From UHGV virus genome UHGV-0127437: 51,462 nt of DNA; one strand, written 5' to 3'. Within the stretch, counting starts at the first letter, position 1. Each line of letters opens with the position of its first letter. The position numbers and the translations under genes were made by a program. The notes beneath the pieces are model-generated. The model did no database searches. It was not told the DNA's origin and saw only the letters and a program-made list of their open reading frames with translations. This DNA is from a virus. This document shows, one piece after another, positions 2,398 through 47,720 of the stretch.

Positions 2398-3314
2398 AAA
2401 TCTCTCTGATCGTTCCGGTCTTCAATGAAGAGGCCACGATACCGATTTTCTACAAAACGGTTCGGGAATTCGACGAATTAAAACAACATGAAGTTGAGAT
2501 AGTATTCATCAACGATGGCAGCAAAGACACAACGGAATCAATTATCAATGCGCTTGCTGTATCCGATCCGCTCGTCATGCCATTATCATTTACCCGTAAT
2601 TTTGGCAAGGAGCCAGCTTTGTTTGCCGGGCTTGATCACGCAACAGGTGATGCTGTTATCCCTATCGATGTCGATTTACAAGACCCCATTGAAGTTATCC
2701 CGCATCTGATAGAGAAATGGCAGGCTGGCGCTGATATGGTTCTGGCTAAACGCACCGATCGTTCAACGGATGGAAGGCTAAAACGAAAGACCGCAGAATG
2801 GTTCTACAAGTTACACAACAAAATCAGCAACCCACAGATCGAAGAGAATGTGGGTGATTTCCGTCTCATGTCCCGTGAGGTTGTGGAAAACATTAAGCTA
2901 ATGCCAGAACGTAACTTGTTCATGAAAGGCGTTCTTAGCTGGGTTGGCGGAAAGACTGACGTTGTGGAATATGCCCGCGGCGAGCGCGTAGCTGGTGACT
3001 CTAAATTCAATGGCTGGAAATTATGGAATCTGGCTCTTGAAGGGATCACCTCCTTCTCAACGTTTCCGCTACGCATGTGGACATACATTGGCCTTTTTGT
3101 CGCAGGTCTGTCATTCCTGTATGGGGCATGGATGATTGTTGATAAGTTATTTTTCGGCAACAGCGTCCCTGGCTATCCGTCGCTGCTTGTATCAATACTT
3201 TTCTTGGGGGGTATTCAACTTATTGGGATCGGTGTTCTTGGTGAGTATATAGGAAGAATTTATATAGAAACAAAGAAAAGACCAAAATATATTTTGGGGA
3301 AACGCAAAAAATGA
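2394..3314 (+). CDS. gtrB: GtrB bactoprenol glucosyltransferase (GT2)
   Basis: [13 protein letters not shown]...INDGSKD...DVDLQDP is a GT2 DxD-type N-terminal domain. Two C-terminal TM helices complete the typical GtrB architecture. Confidence 0.9.
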
Positions 3315-18954: not shown

Positions 18955-19218
<264 letters not shown>

Positions 19219-20488: not shown

Positions 20489-21253
20489 TTAGTCGACGAT
20501 GGTGATACCGTCTTTGAGGGCTGTCTGTTTCCCGGTCTGATCCAGAGAATCGAATGCTGAGCGTTTCATTGTTTTCTGCCCGGCATCGTGTTGAGTCGTT
20601 CGTGAACCACCGCCGTTATTGCCACTGGCTTTCAGGATGTGGTCTTTTTGCGGGTACTGCTCTACCAGGAACTCCAGCGCTTCATCGAATGAGGCCAGTT
20701 CGCCCGGTTTAGAGCGGGAATAAATTTTGTTGCCGGTGCCGTCATAGGCGACAACTTTACCCTCTTCGACTTTAAACGACTGCCCGAAGCGGGCCTGAAG
20801 CAGATCGGCAGGGATGGCGATTTTATCGGTGATAAATTTGGAGCCGGTAAAACTACCGCCGATCATCGAATCGTACAGTTGACCTTCCAGCGTTTTACTT
20901 TTGTTGTTGGCCTCATCCAGTTGCGCCTGGAATGATTTGGTGATTTCGGCTTTCACCTGGTCAACTGCGCCAGCATCGATCAGTTTTTTCTGGTCGATTT
21001 TGGTCATCATTTCGATTGCTTCGAGCGCCTTTTTAGGGTCTTCAATCCCTGAGAAAGCAGCAAGTTTTGTTTCAACGGCTTCTTTGGCTTCGCGATGGGA
21101 TTTAGCCTCGCCATTCAGCGCCGAGATTTTGCTGACAGCCTGAGCGGCATCGAAGCCAATTTCTTTCCCGTCGTCATGCACGTAAACCGGCAGACCATTA
21201 GCATCGACTTCTGCGTAGTGCTTACCATTTACTTCAACTGTCTTCAGTTTCAT
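20489..21253 (-). CDS. Scaffolding protein
   Basis: The likely start is the ATG at 21253 (MKLKTVEVNGKHY). It is an acidic and Lys-rich helical protein directly upstream of the capsid gene. Confidence 0.6.
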   Translation of the reverse strand: MKLKTVEVNGKHYAEVDANGLPVYVHDDGKEIGFDAAQAVSKISALNGEAKSHREAKEAVETKLAAFSGIEDPKKALEAIEMMTKIDQKKLIDAGAVDQVKAEITKSFQAQLDEANNKSKTLEGQLYDSMIGGSFTGSKFITDKIAIPADLLQARFGQSFKVEEGKVVAYDGTGNKIYSRSKPGELASFDEALEFLVEQYPQKDHILKASGNNGGGSRTTQHDAGQKTMKRSAFDSLDQTGKQTALKDGITIVD

Positions 21254-21314
21254 GTTGTTACCTTTGATTTGGTCATCCGACCGTTGCACCGCTCACCATC
21301 CGGATTGCGGCCAT

Positions 21315-21339
21315 AAAAAAGGCCGCCCGGAGGCAGCCT
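21315..21339 (-). terminator. Intrinsic terminator upstream of the scaffold gene
   Basis: On the minus strand: AGGCTGCC-TCCG-GGCGGCCT followed by TTTTTT. Confidence 0.65.
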
Positions 21340-21355
21340 GTTGTGAATTTCAGAT

Positions 21356-21380
21356 AATAAAAAAGGCCGCCTTAGCGACC
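21356..21380 (-). terminator. Intrinsic terminator of the 37-codon ORF
   Basis: On the minus strand: GGTCGC-TAAG-GCGGCC followed by TTTTTTATT. The TAA stop of the small ORF sits in the loop. Confidence 0.55.
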
Positions 21381-21485
21381 TTTCTTTTTGTATTCCCGTT
21401 CGAATTTCCACATTTCATAAATTGAACGACTGGATATAACTATTGCAACCAGACCTAAGGCTATTGTGATTAACTGGATAATCAT
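21372..21485 (-). CDS. Unannotated 37-aa single-TM peptide (MIIQLITIALGLVAIVISSRSIYEMWKFEREYKKKGR)
   Basis: It is too short to appear in the ORF track. AGGAGGTG lies 5 nt upstream of the ATG. It has a hydrophobic N-terminal half, a basic C-terminus and its own terminator. Confidence 0.5.
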   Translation of the reverse strand: MIIQLITIALGLVAIVISSRSIYEMWKFEREYKKKGR

Positions 21486-21514
21486 TATCACCTCCTGTTG
21501 GTCTAAATAAGATA

Positions 21515-22627
21515 TCACAACCCCGCCTCTTTAAACGCCTGTGCGTCACGTTCCCGCAACTGCGCCAGCGTCAGCCATTCGCCTTTATCGGTGTAGAACT
21601 CATCAGGAGACATACCACCATCACGAATCAACCGGGCGCGCTTCTCGCCAACGATTTGCTTCTGGCGATCGAACGACTGACGCGAGAACCATTCCTGATA
21701 GTTGGTATCGCCAGGCACAACACCATCCATACTGGCGCGTTCCGCTGGCGGGATATCGCGAACATCGATACCCAACTCTTTCGCTGATTTGAGGATGAAG
21801 GTTTCAGTGGAACGGCAGCAGAAATGAATTTTCCCTGGCCCCTGCAAATAAGGAATCTTATGACCGATTGGCTTATTTTCCAGCGTGTACTTAAGGCGGT
21901 CGCGAATCCTGCACATCTGCGTCGTTCGGTTGTCCAGGGTGGAAAGCCACTGCTTACCCTTCATCAGGTCGTTATTGGCGTCAGCAAAGCTGTTACGCGC
22001 CGTCGCCGCAAGGTGCCCCACTGCCGTTTTCGCGGTGCTGGCGGCATTGGCGCGACTCATCTGTAACGCGCCATCCTGATAGCCGCGATTAGCGTGACCG
22101 CGAACCTTGCGCGCTATCTGCTCGTTCGTATCTCCCAGCAAAAAACCCTGTCGAACTGCGTTACTGATGCGGTTGAGGCGATCCGCTTCGAGATTTGAGG
22201 CCCACTCACTGAGCAGTCGCCCCTGAAATGGCTGCGCCATTGCCGCAGCATAAACAGCGTCTGGAGAGATACCCACCAGCGGATGAACGTCGGTCACGAA
22301 CTCCGGCAACAGCGCGTCAAAGAGACTCAACTGATACCCCGCCTCATGTTGCGCCAGGTCATTCAGTTCAGTAGACAGGCTGGAAAACATGCCGTTTATC
22401 GCAGTGCGGTTAATTTCCCGCACGCTCGCCAGCAGCGCTTCAAGACGCGTGACCGTAAAGCTGTTCGGCTCTATGCCATCCATCGCCACCAGCAGGCGCG
22501 CTGTCAACTCAGCATCACTTTCGTTGAGCAGCTTCACCATCCTGTTGGCAACGCCGGTACTGTAACGACTAATCCAGATAGCGTGCGCTATGGACTCATC
22601 ACGCAGTTGTTCGTTAACCGTCGCCAT
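21515..22627 (-). CDS. Head morphogenesis protein (SPP1 gp7 / MuF-like)
   Basis: 370 aa immediately after the portal gene. The motif region ...KGKQWLSTLDNRTTQMCRIRDRLKY is typical of the gp7/MuF family. Confidence 0.75.
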   Translation of the reverse strand: MATVNEQLRDESIAHAIWISRYSTGVANRMVKLLNESDAELTARLLVAMDGIEPNSFTVTRLEALLASVREINRTAINGMFSSLSTELNDLAQHEAGYQLSLFDALLPEFVTDVHPLVGISPDAVYAAAMAQPFQGRLLSEWASNLEADRLNRISNAVRQGFLLGDTNEQIARKVRGHANRGYQDGALQMSRANAASTAKTAVGHLAATARNSFADANNDLMKGKQWLSTLDNRTTQMCRIRDRLKYTLENKPIGHKIPYLQGPGKIHFCCRSTETFILKSAKELGIDVRDIPPAERASMDGVVPGDTNYQEWFSRQSFDRQKQIVGEKRARLIRDGGMSPDEFYTDKGEWLTLAQLRERDAQAFKEAGL

Positions 22628-27127: not shown

Positions 27128-27150
27128 AAAAAACCGCCCGGAGGCGGCTA
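27128..27150 (-). terminator. Intrinsic terminator after the AT-rich moron (T-tracts on both sides)
   Basis: CCGCC-cgga-GGCGG stem. On the minus strand it is followed by TTTTTTG. Confidence 0.7.
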
Positions 27151-29102: not shown

Positions 29103-29124
29103 TAAAAAACCCGCCAGAAGCGGG
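29103..29124 (-). terminator. Intrinsic terminator upstream of the lysis cassette
   Basis: On the minus strand: CCCGC-TTCTG-GCGGG followed by TTTTTTATTT. Confidence 0.7.
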
Positions 29125-29513: not shown

Positions 29514-29531
29514 ACTGGCTCCAGAAACGAC

Positions 29532-29557
29532 AAAGCCCCGCACGATGGCGAGGCTTT
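29532..29557 (-). promoter_or_regulatory. 9-bp hairpin downstream of Q (candidate tR'-like terminator or late-leader structure)
   Basis: On the minus strand: AAAGCCTCG-ccatcgtg-CGGGGCTTT followed by GTCGTTTCT. Confidence 0.3.
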
Positions 29558-29617
29558 AAGTTCGTCGACAATCAAAGCTATGGCGACAATATCAGATTTA
29601 CATGAAATATAGCCGTT

Positions 29618-30301
29618 TTAATCTACTTTTGCAATACTTTGCTCACAATTTGTCGCTTTTTGCTGCGAACGTGTTTTGGTTAATGATAGTAATGATTCCC
29701 TGTCCAGTTCAGCAAACAGTCGGAGCATACCCAACCAGTGCGCTGTAAAGGTCTTGGACCAGTTTTTATCCTCTACCCCCACCAGCGCCGCGAGATCGGC
29801 ATATTGATACTGCTCACGCCCTGCCAGCGCTGATTTCATATCCTGCGCCGCCAGCCAGATAAGCTGCCGCAGACGCTCTATTGTCTTTTTCGCCACGCGC
29901 TTCCCCCCCATTTGCTTACTGAACTGCTCCCACGCCCAGCGAGTAATGATTACCTGGTGATCCCAGCATGTGCTTTCGCTGTAATTCCAGAGCAACCAGG
30001 CTTTTTGATGCTCGTCGAGTGACATTAGCGCCCGACGCCATGAAGCAGTGGAGTATTCGACCGGCTGCACCAGCGGGATATGCGATCCTTTGGCGTGTGA
30101 TTGTTTTCCGGGGATCGGAGGGTTGTTCAGCGTTATCAGTTTTCCCGTAACTTCATCGCGTACACGCAACCTCTTGCGGGGATAAGTATTCGTATCGAAC
30201 TGCGCGTTCTCCAGCCAGGCCATTAACTGTCCCTTTGTCGCTCCGCTCAGATCTACCGTGGCCGCAATCAGTTGCTGACGAATATAGGATAAATTTTTCA
30301 C
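29618..30301 (-). CDS. Late-gene antitermination protein Q
   Basis: 227 aa with a GTG start preceded by GGGGA. It is the last regulatory gene before the lysis cassette, and its sequence style resembles the phage antitermination-Q family. Confidence 0.7.
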   Translation of the reverse strand: MKNLSYIRQQLIAATVDLSGATKGQLMAWLENAQFDTNTYPRKRLRVRDEVTGKLITLNNPPIPGKQSHAKGSHIPLVQPVEYSTASWRRALMSLDEHQKAWLLWNYSESTCWDHQVIITRWAWEQFSKQMGGKRVAKKTIERLRQLIWLAAQDMKSALAGREQYQYADLAALVGVEDKNWSKTFTAHWLGMLRLFAELDRESLLSLTKTRSQQKATNCEQSIAKVD

Positions 30302-44392: not shown

Positions 44393-44680
44393 ATGGAAAT
44401 CGTAAAAATCGAAATGAACCTGAAAGCAGTGAATAAAGAATTGGCTGTATTCAACTGCGAGAAGAAAGTATCAGGCGTTATTCATTCAGCCGAAACGGGC
44501 GCGGTCACGGTCATTCTTGACGGTGGCTATGTATTCGGCAAGTTCGACTGTCCTCTTTGTGCTGTAGAGGCAATTTCAATGCTGTCCGTAAAAGTAAGTG
44601 ATGGCGATAACGCCGGGTTTGGCAACTACCGCAGCTACAAACTCGATTACTCAGAAAAGGTTTTCAGCACCGTTCATTAA
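44393..44680 (+). CDS. Hypothetical early-left protein
   Basis: 95-aa ORF with GGAGAAG as SD. Confidence 0.5.
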   Translation: MEIVKIEMNLKAVNKELAVFNCEKKVSGVIHSAETGAVTVILDGGYVFGKFDCPLCAVEAISMLSVKVSDGDNAGFGNYRSYKLDYSEKVFSTVH

Positions 44681-44686
44681 GCAAAA

Positions 44687-44703
44687 GCCCACACGAAGTG
44701 GGC
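44687..44703 (+). promoter_or_regulatory. boxB-like hairpin GCCCAC-ACGAA-GTGGGC
   Basis: 6-bp GC stem with a pentaloop, in an 127-nt gap before the recE-like gene. It shares CACGAAGT with a PL-leader hairpin. Confidence 0.3.
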
Positions 44704-44807
44704 CTGCCCGTCCGGCGTCACCGACCAAAGCGAACCGGACATTTCTACCTGGTAAAACCGAGGTGCCATTAAGGCGCCTCCATTCTACACGAATTGAGGA
44801 TAAAATA

Positions 44808-47720
44808 ATGAGTGGAACTAATCCTGTATTTTTAGTCCGCAAAGCAAAGAAATCATCAGGCCAGAAAGATGCAGTTCTCTGGTGCAGCGATGATCTTGAA
44901 GCGGCAAATGCCACACTGGATTATCTCCTGATTAAATCCGGCGCAAAGCTGAAAGATTATTTTAAAGCTGTTGCCACTAATTTCCCCGTCGTTAACGAGC
45001 TTCCGCCAGAAGGCGAACTCAGCTTAACGTTCTGCGATTTCTACCAGCTTGGAAGCGACAACATGACCTGGGCGCAGATCCCCGGTGTTACGTTGCCCTC
45101 TTCTGATGCTGCCGCCGAAGCACGTCAGCATATCGTTAACGGTGTTGATACCGAAACAGGTGAAGTGCTGGAAGATCACACAGAAGAAGTTGTTGATACC
45201 GAAACTGGCGAAATTACCCAGCACGAACAGCCGTCAACTGAAGACAATGGCGATCGACCTGAACACCCTCAGTTAACTGTTGTGGCAACGATGCCCTTCC
45301 GTCATCGCGTTCTGGCTCAACATATTGGCGATGGCGAGTATCTCTATCATGTCGATGAAGAGCAGAAAAAAGCAATTCTCGCTCTGGAAATGGACACTGA
45401 TAACTCATATGTCCAGAACCTTTTACTTGCGTCTGAGAATGTTGAACCATTCAAAAAGGCCATTGAACACGATATCCATAAAGCGGTAAATGCTGTTAAG
45501 AACGTGTTTCCTGCCGATGGCAAAATCCCTGAGCTGGCAAGCGTTATCCAGTTTCTGAAAACATGGTTCGATACCCCTCATATTGATCGCGGGCTGCTCG
45601 TTAAAGAGTGGTGCAAAGGTAATCGTGTATCAGCTATTCAGCGTACTGAAAGCGGCGCGAACGCTGGCGGCGGAATTGCATCCGATCGCAAAATGCCCCA
45701 GACCACTCTCGGTCTTGAATTTGAAATAGCCTTAGGCCTGCTGGCGCGTCAGTATGAATTTGATATTTATTCTCTGCCATTGCAGATCGAACTAAAGGCT
45801 AATTCAATCATGAACGCAGTTGACGACCCTGAGTGGCTGGCAACGCGCGAACTGTTCGTGTCAATGCCTGGTGGTCTGGACTATTCCCGCGCATGCATCG
45901 TTGCAACGGTAAAAACCACACCAGATGAACTGTACAAATCCCCATTTCGCCACCGCGAGTACCTGAATAAGGTGCTGACAGAAACTGACCATGCCAATCC
46001 CGATCCGCTTGTCGTTGATATTGCCTGCGGACGTTCGTCCATGCCTATGCCAACGCCAGTAAGACAGGATGAACCATCCGTTGAAGAAGTAAACCGACAA
46101 CTCGCAGCTGCGCGCGGTGATTACGTTGAAGGTATCAGTGACCCTAACGATCCGAAGTGGGTTCATGAAGACTACAACGCCGCCTCAAATGAGGGAGAAA
46201 AAACGGAAAATGAGGACGTCGCCGATGTGCAGGTTCAAGAAACTGACGGTAATGAAGAACAGGCTGGTGATGCGCTGCGTACAAGCGAAAGCGATCTGGG
46301 GAATGGTGAAGAAGCAGATACCGGCGAACAAGCCGATGTAGACCACAATCAACCGGAAGTGAGCCAGAACAACGATTCTGCAAGCCATTCTGAGCCAGAA
46401 GCGCAACAGGAAGAACCAATGCCAGTGTGGCCGGAATACTTCGAGCCGGGGCGTTATGAAGGCGTACCGAACGAGGTATATCACGCGGCGAATGGCACCA
46501 GTTCGACGATGGTAAAAGATGCCCGGGTATCGCTGATGTATTTCGAGGCGCGCCACGTATCCAAAACCATCCAGAAAGAACGCACCAAAGTCCTGGATAT
46601 GGGGAATCTGGTGCACGCGCTGGCATTACAGCCTGAACAACTGGAAAAAGAGTTCAGCATCGAGCCGGAAATCCCGGAAGGTGCGCTCACGACGACAGCG
46701 ACGATCCGCGCGGTTATCGACGAACACAACGCCAGCCTGCCGGCATTACTCACCGCAGACGATATCAAAGCGTTGCTGGAAGAATACAACGCCACCCTGC
46801 CCGCGCCATTACCGCTTGGGGCATCCGTTGACGAAGCGTATGCGTCATATGAGCAACTCCCGGAAGAGTTCCAGCGCATCGAAAACGGGACTAAGCATAC
46901 AGCAGCGGCAATGAAGGCCTGCATCAAAGAATACAACGCCACCCTGCCGCCGCAGGTGAAAACCAGCGGAAGCCGTGACGCGCTGCTTGAGCAACTGGCG
47001 ATCATCAACCCTGACCTGGTCGCACAGGAAGCACAGAAGCCACAGCCGTTGAAAGTATCCGGCACCAAAGCGGATCTGATTCAGGCAGTGAAATCCGTCA
47101 AACCTGAAACAGTGTTTGCCGACGAGCTGCTTGACGCATGGCGCGAAAACCCCGGCGATAAAATTCTGGTTACCCGCCAGCAGTTGAGCACCGCGCAGGC
47201 CATCCAGAAAGCGCTGCTGAATCACCCGACCGCCGGGAAGCTGCTGACGCATCCGAACCGCGCCGTAGAGGTGAGCTATTTCGGTATTGATGAGGAAACC
47301 GGGCTGGAAATCCGCGTGCGCCCAGACCTTGAAATCGACATGGGCGGCCTGCGCATCGGTGCGGACCTGAAAACCATCAGCATGTGGAATATCAAGCAGG
47401 AAGGCCTGCGCGCCAAACTGCACCGGGAAATCATCGAGCGCGATTATCACCTGAGCGCTGCCATGTACTGCGAAACCGCAGCGCTGGACCAGTTTTTCTG
47501 GATATTCGTCAACAAAGACGAGAACTACCACTGGATCGCCATCGTCGAGGTATCCGAAGAGTTGCTGGAACTCGGCATGCTGGAATACCGCAAAGCAATG
47601 CGCGCCATAGCGAACGGGTTCGACACTGGCGAATGGCCAGCGCCGATTACCGAAGATTACGCCGAAGAACTCAACGATTTTGATGTGCGCCGCCTTGAAG
47701 CGCTGCGCGTACAGGCATAA
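44808..47720 (+). CDS. recE: RecE-like exonuclease VIII (C-terminal PD-(D/E)XK domain) with a long N-terminal extension
   Basis: 970 aa from the ATG at 44808 (GAGGA SD). The C-terminus (...GVPNEVYHAANGTSST...IRVRPDLEID...GADLKTIS...YHLSAAMYCE) fits the RecE-type nuclease. It lies immediately upstream of the annealase. Confidence 0.65.
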   Translation: MSGTNPVFLVRKAKKSSGQKDAVLWCSDDLEAANATLDYLLIKSGAKLKDYFKAVATNFPVVNELPPEGELSLTFCDFYQLGSDNMTWAQIPGVTLPSSDAAAEARQHIVNGVDTETGEVLEDHTEEVVDTETGEITQHEQPSTEDNGDRPEHPQLTVVATMPFRHRVLAQHIGDGEYLYHVDEEQKKAILALEMDTDNSYVQNLLLASENVEPFKKAIEHDIHKAVNAVKNVFPADGKIPELASVIQFLKTWFDTPHIDRGLLVKEWCKGNRVSAIQRTESGANAGGGIASDRKMPQTTLGLEFEIALGLLARQYEFDIYSLPLQIELKANSIMNAVDDPEWLATRELFVSMPGGLDYSRACIVATVKTTPDELYKSPFRHREYLNKVLTETDHANPDPLVVDIACGRSSMPMPTPVRQDEPSVEEVNRQLAAARGDYVEGISDPNDPKWVHEDYNAASNEGEKTENEDVADVQVQETDGNEEQAGDALRTSESDLGNGEEADTGEQADVDHNQPEVSQNNDSASHSEPEAQQEEPMPVWPEYFEPGRYEGVPNEVYHAANGTSSTMVKDARVSLMYFEARHVSKTIQKERTKVLDMGNLVHALALQPEQLEKEFSIEPEIPEGALTTTATIRAVIDEHNASLPALLTADDIKALLEEYNATLPAPLPLGASVDEAYASYEQLPEEFQRIENGTKHTAAAMKACIKEYNATLPPQVKTSGSRDALLEQLAIINPDLVAQEAQKPQPLKVSGTKADLIQAVKSVKPETVFADELLDAWRENPGDKILVTRQQLSTAQAIQKALLNHPTAGKLLTHPNRAVEVSYFGIDEETGLEIRVRPDLEIDMGGLRIGADLKTISMWNIKQEGLRAKLHREIIERDYHLSAAMYCETAALDQFFWIFVNKDENYHWIAIVEVSEELLELGMLEYRKAMRAIANGFDTGEWPAPITEDYAEELNDFDVRRLEALRVQA

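What the first reader, a model, noticed from the sequence alone, without database searches (positions are those of the whole stretch)
21311..21515. Unannotated 37-codon hydrophobic-peptide gene flanked by two terminators between the MuF-like and scaffold genes
The 225-bp gap holds a minus-strand mini-gene. AGGAGGTG-N5-ATG is followed by MIIQLITIALGLVAIVISSRSIYEMWKFEREYKKKGR, with one TM helix and a basic tail. It ends in a hairpin plus T-tract (21356-21380), and a second terminator follows (21315-21339). This composition is typical of type I toxins and small membrane-active phage peptides. Two tandem terminators in the middle of the head operon are also unusual, and they require Q-modified polymerase for read-through.
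Basis: partly seen in the sequence, partly recalled or inferred. Interest (0 to 1): 0.5.

Follow-up and report, generated by a model that had tools for sequence, protein, structure and literature searches.

The report
Conserved phage membrane-peptide gene with terminators
The gap between two head-assembly genes of this prophage (apparently from Citrobacter koseri) holds a real, evolutionarily conserved gene for a 37-residue membrane peptide of unknown role, sitting as swappable cargo in front of a widely shared pair of transcription stop signals, which is an ordinary kind of phage accessory gene rather than a toxin-antitoxin system.

Summary
On the minus strand there is AGGAGG-N5-ATG, a 37-codon ORF (21485-21372), and two hairpin+T6 terminators (T1, T2).

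The ORF is a real gene. Relatives of 34-38 aa occur in HK639, CobraSix and about 20 viral or metagenome loci, with an invariant ISSRSIYEMW motif. dN/dS is 0.04-0.30, and synonymous sites are saturated between the two context classes.

It is AT-rich cargo (GC 35% vs 55%) in a variable slot. Relatives have the slot empty, or filled by an unrelated 79-aa gene, in front of the same terminator(s). The window copy looks recombinant inside the T1 stem, which put the stop codon in the loop and added Gly-Arg.

No promoter-like site, antisense RNA or conserved SD-masking fold was found, so the type I toxin reading is unsupported.

A Q gene, a PR'-like promoter, a terminated leader and several further terminators make this a normal Q-dependent late operon. 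Tandem terminators are not unusual here.

Best reading: a late-transcribed, moron-like accessory gene for an N-out/C-in inner-membrane peptide that probably binds a membrane partner. Its function is untested. It is a new, uncharacterised member of a known kind, of modest interest.

The parts
21515..22627 (-). MuF-like head morphogenesis gene (upstream neighbour)
   Evidence: PF04233; phrog_241 head morphogenesis, E = 1e-176
21491..21496 (-). Shine-Dalgarno AGGAGG, 5 nt before the ATG
   Evidence: Read. SD-like GGAGG/GAGG motifs at equivalent spacing in all homologs.
21372..21485 (-). 37-codon gene for a single-helix membrane peptide (stop TAA 21374-21372)
   Evidence: ORF. Identical protein P0001 is called in many assemblies. 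Homologs found. dN/dS 0.04-0.30. TM and topology. AF2 helix. L008 has an in-frame TAG just upstream, which excludes the longer GTG start.
21359..21386 (-). Terminator T1: GGTCGC-TAAG-GCGGCC + T6, extended by A-tract/U-tract pairing. The stop codon is in the loop. Also terminator-like on the plus strand.
   Evidence: -16.7 kcal/mol, z = -4.4. Stem invariant in 18 peptide loci. HK639 ortholog annotated as terminator. Plus-strand reading.
21315..21339 (-). Terminator T2: AGGCTGCC-TCCG-GGCGGCCT + T6
   Evidence: Conserved with T1 as one module in L001, L002, L003 and L008.
21313..21327 (-). 15-nt direct repeat GGCGGCCTTTTTTAT, copy in T2 (the other copy is 21357-21371 in T1)
   Evidence: 2 matches against 0.01 expected. 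The HK639-type single terminator aligns as the product of a deletion between the repeats.
20489..21253 (-). DUF6651 scaffold-like gene (downstream neighbour)
   Evidence: PF20356, E = 2e-66; phrog_784 and phrog_206 head scaffolding, E = 1e-25
29618..30301 (-). Q antiterminator gene of the same late operon
   Evidence: PF06323, E = 2.4e-118
29531..29634 (-). PR'-like promoter (TTGCAA-17-TATATT), short leader (Rfam isrJ) and tR'-like terminator

Best explanation
The gap holds a genuine accessory (moron-like) gene. It encodes a 37-residue, single-helix inner-membrane peptide, and it sits in a variable cassette slot whose fixed downstream boundary is a widely shared intrinsic-terminator module.

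Shown:
- The peptide belongs to a small family (34-38 aa, invariant L5, G11, I15, I17, S18, R20, Y23, E24, M25, W26). So far it is seen only in siphophage or prophage late operons of Enterobacterales, under purifying selection.
- It occurs in two different genomic contexts. In both, its stop codon abuts or lies inside the same GGTCGC-N4-GCGGCC-T6 hairpin.
- It is AT-rich relative to its neighbours.
- In relatives the same slot is empty or carries an unrelated 79-aa gene.

Inferred:
- It has no promoter of its own. It is transcribed from PR' with the late genes by Q-modified polymerase, which reads through T1 and T2, and it is translated from its own strong SD. T1 and T2 stop unmodified polymerase, for example in the prophage state or for read-in transcripts.
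- The window's allele arose by recombination within the T1 stem between an HK639-like peptide gene (…AAA TAG GTCGC) and the Klebsiella-phage-type T1-T2 module (…GGT CGC TAA GG). This moved the stop into the loop and added Gly-Arg.
- The peptide inserts N-out/C-in. Through its invariant juxtamembrane motif ISSRSIYEMW it binds a larger inner-membrane protein at the cytoplasmic face late in infection. This would be a non-essential modulatory role, for example blocking DNA entry of other phages or tuning envelope or lysis physiology, rather than non-specific membrane damage.
For: - Gene reality. Translated homologs exist in HK639 (69% identity, same MuF/scaffold slot) and CobraSix (58%). There are 13 viral and 5 metagenome loci.
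- Selection. dN/dS is 0.04-0.30 where dS is unsaturated, and dS is saturated between classes, with Ser AGY<->TCN and Arg CGN<->AGA switches inside the invariant motif. SD motifs are conserved.
- Topology. The TM segment and positive C-flank are, and the AF2 single helix.
- Cargo and slot. Megablast homology breaks at the gap and resumes at window 21382, the T1 stem. A 79-aa gene occupies the slot in L001-L003, L027 and L076 with the same T1-T2. The slot is empty in L085 and absent in vB_EcoS-683R6. Extra cargo is present in L013, L014 and L019.
- Composition. GC is 35% vs 55%, and GC3 is 37% vs 63%.
- Terminator module. T1-T2 is 97% identical between otherwise non-alignable flanks. The same T1 follows at least 120 unrelated ORFs and ES18 gp3, where it is annotated as a terminator.
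- Late operon.
- No own or antisense promoter was detected.
- Literature frame. Morons are additions with deviant GC and their own promoter and terminator, and HK97 gp15 is a small inner-membrane moron product that excludes superinfecting phage (PMC3594210).
Against: - There are no expression, localisation or phenotype data, so the peptide's role is inference only.
- Absence of a promoter rests on sigma-70 consensus scans, which miss weak or atypical promoters. Expression from the prophage (a classical moron) is therefore not excluded.
- T1 stem sequence, including its U.G wobble, is strictly invariant, and the stop codon is always at -3, -2 or +6 of the stem. Both could hint at a functional coupling between ORF and terminator that this explanation treats as mere co-inheritance.
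- L013 has lost the stop codon (TAG->CAG) and reads through the hairpin.
- The family is rare: 2 clusters among 1.84 billion representatives, and none found among the 185,579 species-representative genomes.
Confidence: 0.6

Rival explanations
1. Classical moron. The peptide gene has its own weak promoter inside the 3' end of the MuF gene and is expressed from the repressed prophage, with T1/T2 ending that transcript. The peptide would then give the lysogen a benefit such as superinfection exclusion, like HK97 gp15.
For: Three of four moron criteria are met: it is an addition relative to relatives, its GC deviates, and it has a terminator directly after the gene (definition in PMC3594210). Its product is a small inner-membrane protein, like gp15. 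T1/T2 make most sense as the end of a short transcript.
Against: No promoter-like site at 9/12 or better lies upstream of the ORF in the window, HK639 or CobraSix. Permissive 8/12 matches are not positionally conserved. In HK639 the ATG follows the MuF stop by 3 nt. There is no similarity to YebO/gp15 (no Pfam hit at E <= 1).
Confidence: 0.2
2. Translation-gated terminator (leader-peptide-type attenuator). The ORF exists mainly so that a ribosome reaching its stop codon covers the 5' arm of T1 and suppresses termination. This would couple transcription into the scaffold/coat genes to translation, possibly with nascent-peptide-mediated stalling at the stop codon as with TnaC.
For: The stop codon is at -3, -2 or +6 of the stem in all 18 peptide loci, against a median of -18 for 77 other cargo genes using the same terminator. 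Moving a stop codon from 28 to 5 bp before a terminator lowered termination from about 90% to under 10%, and this was reversed by abolishing translation (PMC4824070). Ribosome-controlled termination after a mini-ORF is known for mccA (PMC4231749). The conserved YEMW lies 9-11 residues from the C-terminus.
Against: Conservation extends over the whole TM helix, which a pure occupancy device does not need. The W-to-stop distance differs (9 vs 11 residues) between widespread alleles, which argues against a precise arrest geometry. The ORF is only about 111-117 nt, and terminators within the first ~100 bp of a coding region still work because the ribosome lags (PMC4824070). In the window T2, about 33 nt further on, would terminate anyway. 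Q-modified polymerase should ignore both. 18% of other cargo genes also abut the hairpin.
Confidence: 0.07
3. Type I toxin or generic membrane-damaging peptide. This would be a small hydrophobic toxin whose translation is held in check by an antisense RNA.
For: Its size, single TM helix and basic tail resemble type I toxins. T1 also looks like a terminator on the plus strand. A weak isrK-like plus-strand hit covers 21307-21385 (27.3 bits).
Against: No plus-strand promoter-like site was found. The isrK hit is about half the gathering score and consists of generic GC hairpins and A/U runs. There is no own promoter, no long structured 5' UTR and no conserved SD sequestration. The gene is embedded in a late structural operon. 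A specific invariant juxtamembrane motif suggests a defined partner rather than bulk membrane damage. There are no PADLOC, Pfam or NCBIfam toxin hits.
Confidence: 0.05
4. Chance ORF. The gap would then be only a terminator-bearing intergenic spacer.
For: A 37-codon ORF is short. There are no Pfam or NCBIfam families. It is unannotated in HK639.
Against: dN/dS is far below 1 with saturated synonymous sites, including two-step Ser codon switches. SD and start are conserved. It is retained in two unrelated genomic contexts.
Confidence: 0.01

Closest known systems
HK97 gp15 moron (small inner-membrane superinfection-exclusion protein; PMC3594210)
   Same: A small membrane protein gene inserted as extra DNA between morphogenesis genes of a lambdoid siphophage late operon. 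It has deviant GC, is followed by a terminator, and is absent or replaced in relatives.
   Different: gp15 has its own promoter, is expressed from the prophage and belongs to the YebO family. Here no promoter-like site was found and there is no YebO similarity. The function here is untested.
Internal intrinsic terminators of Q-dependent lambdoid late operons (e.g. the annotated terminators of HK639 and of ES18 after gp3)
   Same: A GC hairpin plus T-tract between late genes, downstream of a Q gene, PR' and tR'. The identical T1 stem occurs in HK639 and ES18, where the depositors annotated it as a terminator.
   Different: Here two are in tandem (the T1-T2 module), flanked by a 15-nt direct repeat. 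T1 has the upstream gene's stop codon in its loop.
Bacterial small membrane proteins that regulate larger membrane proteins (e.g. AcrZ, MgtS, MgrB, SgrT; from my own knowledge)
   Same: A peptide of about 30-50 aa with a single TM helix, a short charged cytoplasmic tail and a conserved interfacial motif.
   Different: No sequence similarity. This one is phage-encoded, and no partner is known.
Type I toxins (Hok, TisB, Ldr, Ibs, ZorO)
   Same: A short hydrophobic peptide with a basic end.
   Different: No antisense RNA, own promoter or regulatory 5' UTR was detected, and the gene lies inside a structural operon.
Ribosome-controlled terminators after mini-ORFs (pyrBI leader from my own knowledge; mccA, PMC4231749; position effect, PMC4824070)
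   Same: A short ORF ends at or within an intrinsic terminator hairpin, so a terminating ribosome would occlude the 5' arm.
   Different: The peptide is conserved as a protein along its whole length. A second terminator follows in the window. Q antitermination makes gating unnecessary during lytic growth.

Membership tests
Moron (as defined in PMC3594210) | Extra DNA relative to closely related phages | tested here: met
   The slot is empty in L085, absent in vB_EcoS-683R6, and holds an unrelated 79-aa gene in L001-L003, L027 and L076.
Moron (as defined in PMC3594210) | GC content differs from surrounding genes | tested here: met
   GC 35% vs 55% (MuF), GC3 37% vs 63%. Homologs show 42-48% vs 52-59%.
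Moron (as defined in PMC3594210) | Own terminator | tested here: met
   T1 abuts or overlaps the stop codon in all 18 loci.
Moron (as defined in PMC3594210) | Own promoter giving expression from the repressed prophage | tested here: not met
   No sigma-70-like site at 9/12 or better upstream in the window, HK639 or CobraSix, and no positionally conserved weaker site. A consensus scan is not proof of absence.
YebO / HK97 gp15 family | Sequence similarity to the YebO family (Pfam YebO model, accession recalled as PF13974) | tested here: not met
   No Pfam hit at E <= 1 and no NCBIfam family for the window peptide. This relies on the Pfam-A copy containing a YebO model; gp15 itself was not fetched and compared directly.
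Type I toxin-antitoxin | Small hydrophobic membrane peptide | tested here: met
   37 aa with a 17-residue TM segment.
Type I toxin-antitoxin | Antisense or trans RNA antitoxin with its own promoter | tested here: not met
   No plus-strand promoter-like site. Only a sub-threshold isrK-like match built from generic hairpins.
Type I toxin-antitoxin | Own promoter and a structured 5' UTR that masks the SD | tested here: not met
   The SD lies 19 nt after the MuF stop. Folds differ between homologs and z-scores are mostly insignificant.
Type I toxin-antitoxin | Toxicity on expression | not testable with these tools
   Needs an induction experiment.
Intrinsic (Rho-independent) terminator | Stable GC-rich hairpin directly followed by a U-tract | tested here: met
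   T1 -16.7 kcal/mol and T2 -16.4 kcal/mol, each followed by T6.
Intrinsic (Rho-independent) terminator | Structure maintained in evolution | tested here: inconclusive
   The T1 stem never varies in 18 loci while the loop has 9 variants. L003 has U.G->C-G in T1 and G-C->G.U changes in T2. There are no double compensatory changes.
Intrinsic (Rho-independent) terminator | Termination in vivo or in vitro | not testable with these tools
   Needs Term-seq or single-round transcription.
Q-dependent lambdoid late operon | Q gene, then a constitutive late promoter, short leader and tR', upstream of lysis and morphogenesis genes on one strand | tested here: met
   PF06323 Q at 29618-30301. TTGCAA-17-TATATT at 29634-29606. 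isrJ-type leader at 29602-29532 with a terminator at 29558-29531. Then holin, lysozyme, spanin-like, terminase, portal and MuF genes.
Leader-peptide attenuator (pyrBI/TnaC type) | ORF ends at or within the terminator hairpin | tested here: met
   Stop offset is -3, -2 or +6 in all loci.
Leader-peptide attenuator (pyrBI/TnaC type) | Termination responds to translation of the ORF | not testable with these tools
   Needs reporter assays with start-codon or SD mutants.

The most novel reading that the evidence does not exclude
The peptide ORF and the abutting invariant-stem terminator are one functional unit: a mobile, translation-gated terminator. In this reading the conserved nascent peptide (YEMW 9-11 residues before the stop) holds the terminating ribosome on the 5' arm of the hairpin. 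Read-through into downstream morphogenesis genes by non-Q-modified polymerase would then depend on translation or on a sensed signal, and the released peptide would additionally act in the membrane.
Probability: 0.05. Interest if true: 0.7.

Novelty: new member of a known kind. Interest (0 to 1): 0.3.

Why it matters
If the reading is right, this adds an uncharacterised family of phage-encoded mini membrane proteins that gene callers often miss or mis-frame (HK639 and CobraSix). It also gives a clean example of how accessory genes are swapped in phage late operons. Here a short terminator module, 97% identical between otherwise non-alignable flanks, marks the junction, and the crossover point can be placed inside the hairpin stem. 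Both points fit existing ideas about morons and mosaicism rather than changing them. The practical value is better annotation and a small, tractable candidate for a membrane-targeting phage effector.

Tried and rejected
- Family libraries. Pfam, NCBIfam and PADLOC gave nothing for the window peptide. PHROG hits were only E = 0.09-0.3. A MamI hit for the HK639 peptide (19.8 bits vs a cut-off of 80) was rejected as generic TM similarity.
- PDB profile search gave only E ~ 1.
- Serratia phage Tlacuache gp53 (tblastn E = 5) was rejected as not significant.
- Plasmids gave no match. E. coli complete genomes gave no HK639-type copy, and only the scaffold 5' end matched in 2 records.
- Genome contigs. 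The alignment-based scan confirmed none. A pattern tying ATGTGG to the terminator gave 4 hits, none a peptide homolog; two show the same terminator after other genes and two are chance.
- Exhaustive HMMER against 1.84 billion representatives found only the query cluster and one 34-aa relative.
- Literature. The HK639 papers and the motif string gave nothing on this ORF.
- SD-masking mRNA structure. It was predicted for the window but is neither conserved nor significant in homologs.
- isrK-like plus-strand RNA. The hit is sub-threshold, made of generic hairpins, and has no promoter.
- A force-sensing arrest peptide of the MifM/SecM type was rejected on my own reasoning. With 35-38 residues the TM segment would still be in or at the ribosomal exit tunnel when the stop codon is reached.
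- The 48-aa GTG-started version of the ORF was rejected because L008 has an in-frame TAG just upstream of the ATG.
Full report
**1. What is in the sequence**

On the minus strand the MuF-like head-morphogenesis gene (PF04233; phrog_241) ends at 21515. Nineteen bases later comes AGGAGG (21496-21491), then a 5-nt spacer, then ATG (21485). The ORF has 37 codons, MIIQLITIALGLVAIVISSRSIYEMWKFEREYKKKGR, and ends with TAA at 21374-21372.

The stop codon lies in the loop of hairpin T1: GGTCGC-TAAG-GCGGCC (21380-21365) followed by T6. With the upstream A-tract the predicted stem is 12 bp, at -16.7 kcal/mol and z = -4.4. T2 (21339-21320 plus T6) is -16.4 kcal/mol, z = -2.6.

The next gene is DUF6651/phrog_784, distantly phrog_206 head scaffolding. 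It starts at ATG 21253, so the gap is 261 bp, not 225.

The SD spacing was mis-stated. T1 is missing from the simple scan. I read this as the A-tract letting the stem consume the T-tract. The orthologous hairpins are found by the same scan in HK639 and CobraSix.

**2. The ORF is a real gene**

tblastn finds translated relatives in two phages.
- In E. coli phage HK639 (69% identity) the relative is unannotated and sits in the same MuF/scaffold slot, followed by a terminator annotated by the depositors.
- In Enterobacter phage CobraSix (58%) it lies between a phrog_797 gene and the Neck1/tail-completion gene. The CDS annotated there is in a different frame.

Scans of viral and metagenome contigs add 13 and 5 loci. 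They fall into class A (MuF/scaffold slot) and class B (CobraSix-type slot).

Ten positions are invariant (L5, G11, I15, I17, S18, R20, Y23, E24, M25, W26), and the ISSRSIYEMW motif that spans most of them is kept in nearly all copies. Nei-Gojobori dN/dS is 0.04-0.30 wherever dS is not saturated. Between classes synonymous sites are saturated while the motif is kept through AGY<->TCN serine and CGN<->AGA arginine switches. Every copy has an SD at proper spacing. In L008 an in-frame TAG excludes the longer GTG start.

The identical 37-aa protein is already called in many assemblies (116 index blocks), always between MuF and DUF6651. One source names it 'Uncharacterised protein [Citrobacter koseri]'. 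The window is therefore most likely a C. koseri prophage.

The family is small. An exhaustive HMMER search of 1.84 billion representatives finds only the query cluster and one 34-aa relative. No Pfam, NCBIfam, PADLOC or PDB relative exists.

**3. The peptide**

A 17-residue hydrophobic segment starts at residue 1-4. The N-flank is 0-3 residues and the C-flank carries a net charge of +2 to +4. AlphaFold2 gives one helix over residues 2-36 at pLDDT 88. By the positive-inside rule (established knowledge) this predicts N-out/C-in insertion, with the invariant R-S-I-Y-E-M-W stretch at the cytoplasmic interface. G11, A14 and S18 form a small-residue face, which is my inference.

**4. The slot and the terminator module**

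Megablast of the region shows a mosaic break. MuF matches one set of phages. Homology to another set resumes at window 21382, the first bases of the T1 stem.

- In Klebsiella phages 5 LV-2017 and ST16-OXA48phi5.1 and in Flyfo Tbat2_3, the slot holds an unrelated 79-aa gene ending ...CAA GGT CGC TAA GG, followed by the same T1 and T2.
- In L085 the slot is empty: MuF stop, 7 nt, then T1.
- In vB_EcoS-683R6 there is no slot at all.
- Some loci have additional small cargo genes.

The T1-T2 module is 97% identical between the window and ST16-OXA48phi5.1, although the cargo upstream and the scaffold type downstream are not alignable. HK639-type loci have a single terminator. It aligns exactly as the product of a deletion between the two 15-nt direct repeats GGCGGCCTTTTTTAT of T1 and T2.

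Comparing HK639 (AAA TAG GTCGC TTCG GCGGCC) with the window (AAA GGT CGC TAA G GCGGCC) shows where the window allele joins. A peptide gene meets the 79-aa-type terminator inside the stem, which explains both the stop codon in the loop and the extra Gly-Arg. This is inference.

The peptide ORF is AT-rich: GC 35% vs 55%, GC3 37% vs 63%. Homologs show 42-48% vs 52-59%.

The exact T1 pattern occurs in at least 120 viral contigs after dozens of unrelated, mostly small ORFs. It also follows ES18 gp3, where it is annotated as a putative terminator, and unrelated genes in Atlantibacter and Pantoea genomes.

**5. Transcriptional setting**

A Q antiterminator gene (PF06323, E = 2e-118) lies at 29618-30301 on the same strand. 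A PR'-like TTGCAA-17-TATATT overlaps its 3' end and runs just past it, followed by a short leader that Rfam matches as isrJ and a strong hairpin terminator. Holin, lysozyme, DUF2514, metallopeptidase, terminase, portal and MuF genes come next.

Further strong same-strand terminators lie at 29124, 27149, 19252, 14741 and 7022. Internal terminators, including the tandem pair, are thus a regular feature of this Q-dependent operon. That Q-modified polymerase reads through them is the lambda paradigm and was not tested here.

No promoter-like site at 9/12 or better lies near the peptide ORF on either strand in the window, HK639 or CobraSix. Permissive 8/12 matches are not positionally conserved.

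**6. Testing the type I toxin idea**

Only the 'small hydrophobic peptide' criterion is met.
- No antisense promoter was found.
- No Rfam family reaches threshold in the gap.
- A plus-strand isrK-like hit (27.3 bits vs a gathering score of 50) is built from generic GC hairpins and A/U runs of the reverse-complemented T2-T1.
- The SD-masking fold predicted for the window is neither significant nor conserved in homologs.

**7. Moron membership**

By the definition in PMC3594210, three criteria are met: addition, deviant GC and terminator. The fourth, an own promoter, was not found. I therefore call it moron-like cargo co-transcribed with the late genes. A promoter-bearing classical moron stays as the main rival, at 0.2.

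**8. ORF-terminator coupling**

In all 18 peptide loci, which were retrieved by protein similarity only, the T1 stem is invariant while the loop has 9 variants. The stop codon is at -3, -2 or +6 of the stem. For 77 other cargo genes using the same terminator the median is -18, and 18% are within 5 nt.

Experiments in E. coli show that a stop codon 5 bp before a terminator lowers termination from about 90% to under 10% in a translation-dependent way. They also show that terminators in the first ~100 bp of a coding region remain efficient (PMC4824070).

T1 could therefore be partly ribosome-gated. Several points keep this a low-probability (0.07) reading:
- The ORF is short.
- T2 is present in the window.
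- Q antitermination makes gating unnecessary during lytic growth.
- The W-to-stop distance varies (9 vs 11 residues).
- The peptide is conserved along its whole length.

Why the stem sequence, including a U.G wobble, never changes remains unexplained. Frequent recombination at this linker is my guess.

**9. Verdict**

It is best explained as accessory cargo in a terminator-bounded cassette slot of a Q-dependent late operon, encoding an N-out/C-in mini membrane protein that probably binds a membrane partner. Its function is unknown and untested.

The type I toxin reading and the 'unusual tandem terminators' claim are not supported.

- Novelty: a new, uncharacterised member of a known kind.
- Interest: 0.3.
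- Most novel surviving reading: a mobile translation-gated terminator, p ~ 0.05.

Noticed in passing
window 29532-29602 (-): Rfam isrJ (69 bits, above gathering) lies just downstream of the Q gene, between a PR'-like promoter and a strong terminator. Here the 'isrJ sRNA' looks like the short terminated late-leader transcript (a lambda 6S-RNA analogue) of a lambdoid prophage.
   Followed up: partly
window 44682-44770 (-): Rfam isrB Hfq-binding sRNA match (99.9 bits, full length). It lies antisense to the 5' end of a 1040-aa plus-strand ORF (44598-47720).
   Followed up: no
L005 (CobraSix NC_071003) 3001-3108 vs annotated CDS 3003-3194: The annotated gp15 CDS is in a different frame, runs through the terminator and overlaps gp16. 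The conserved 35-aa peptide frame (3001-3108) is the one under selection, so this is probably a mis-annotation. HK639 lacks any annotation for its copy (L004 2992-3108).
   Followed up: yes
L001 2273-2512; L002 and L003 2272-2511; L027; L076: An unrelated 79-aa gene (MKIFLKGGPRDGE...YHYQGR) with no Pfam, PHROG, NCBIfam or PADLOC family occupies the same slot. Its stop codon is also in the T1 loop. It is unannotated in KY271399.
   Followed up: partly
L013 2992-3174: One class A copy has TAG->CAG at the stop and reads through the terminator hairpin to 64 aa. It also has Cys substitutions in the motif (RCVYEMWC) and an extra phrog_3540 ORF upstream in place of the MuF end. It may be a decaying or divergent allele.
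   Followed up: no
L014 844-1071; L019 2765-2992; L151; L154: In some class B loci a ~70-aa protein with its own hydrophobic segment and a coiled C-terminus (…EVRKLIENVDELERRVKDL) ends a few bases before the peptide ATG. This would be a second small membrane-protein cargo in the same slot.
   Followed up: no
window 21271-21282 (-) and homologs: The leader of the DUF6651 scaffold gene contains a conserved palindromic GGTCGGATGACC preceded by GC-rich repeats (…GCGGATG…GCGG…). It is conserved in HK639, L003, L011 and L001. A possible regulatory or processing element.
   Followed up: no
window 18955-19218 (-): A small gene after the coat gene (phrog_1514) carries a run of ~10 Glu-Gln repeats, from a (GAGCAG)n tandem repeat near 19080-19140.
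   Followed up: no
window 27132-27149 (-): The terminator after the lysis cassette (AGCCGCCTCCGGGCGGTT + T-tract) closely resembles T2 (…GCCTCCGGGCGG…). The hairpin also reads as terminator-like on the plus strand.
   Followed up: no
viral contigs L024-L103; ES18 (L156 2002-2023); L021; L022: The exact GGTCGC-N4-GCGGCC-T6 hairpin follows at least 120 unrelated, mostly small accessory ORFs across enterobacterial phages. I estimate only a few exact matches would be expected by chance in that collection. It may act as a common recombination linker for cargo exchange.
   Followed up: partly
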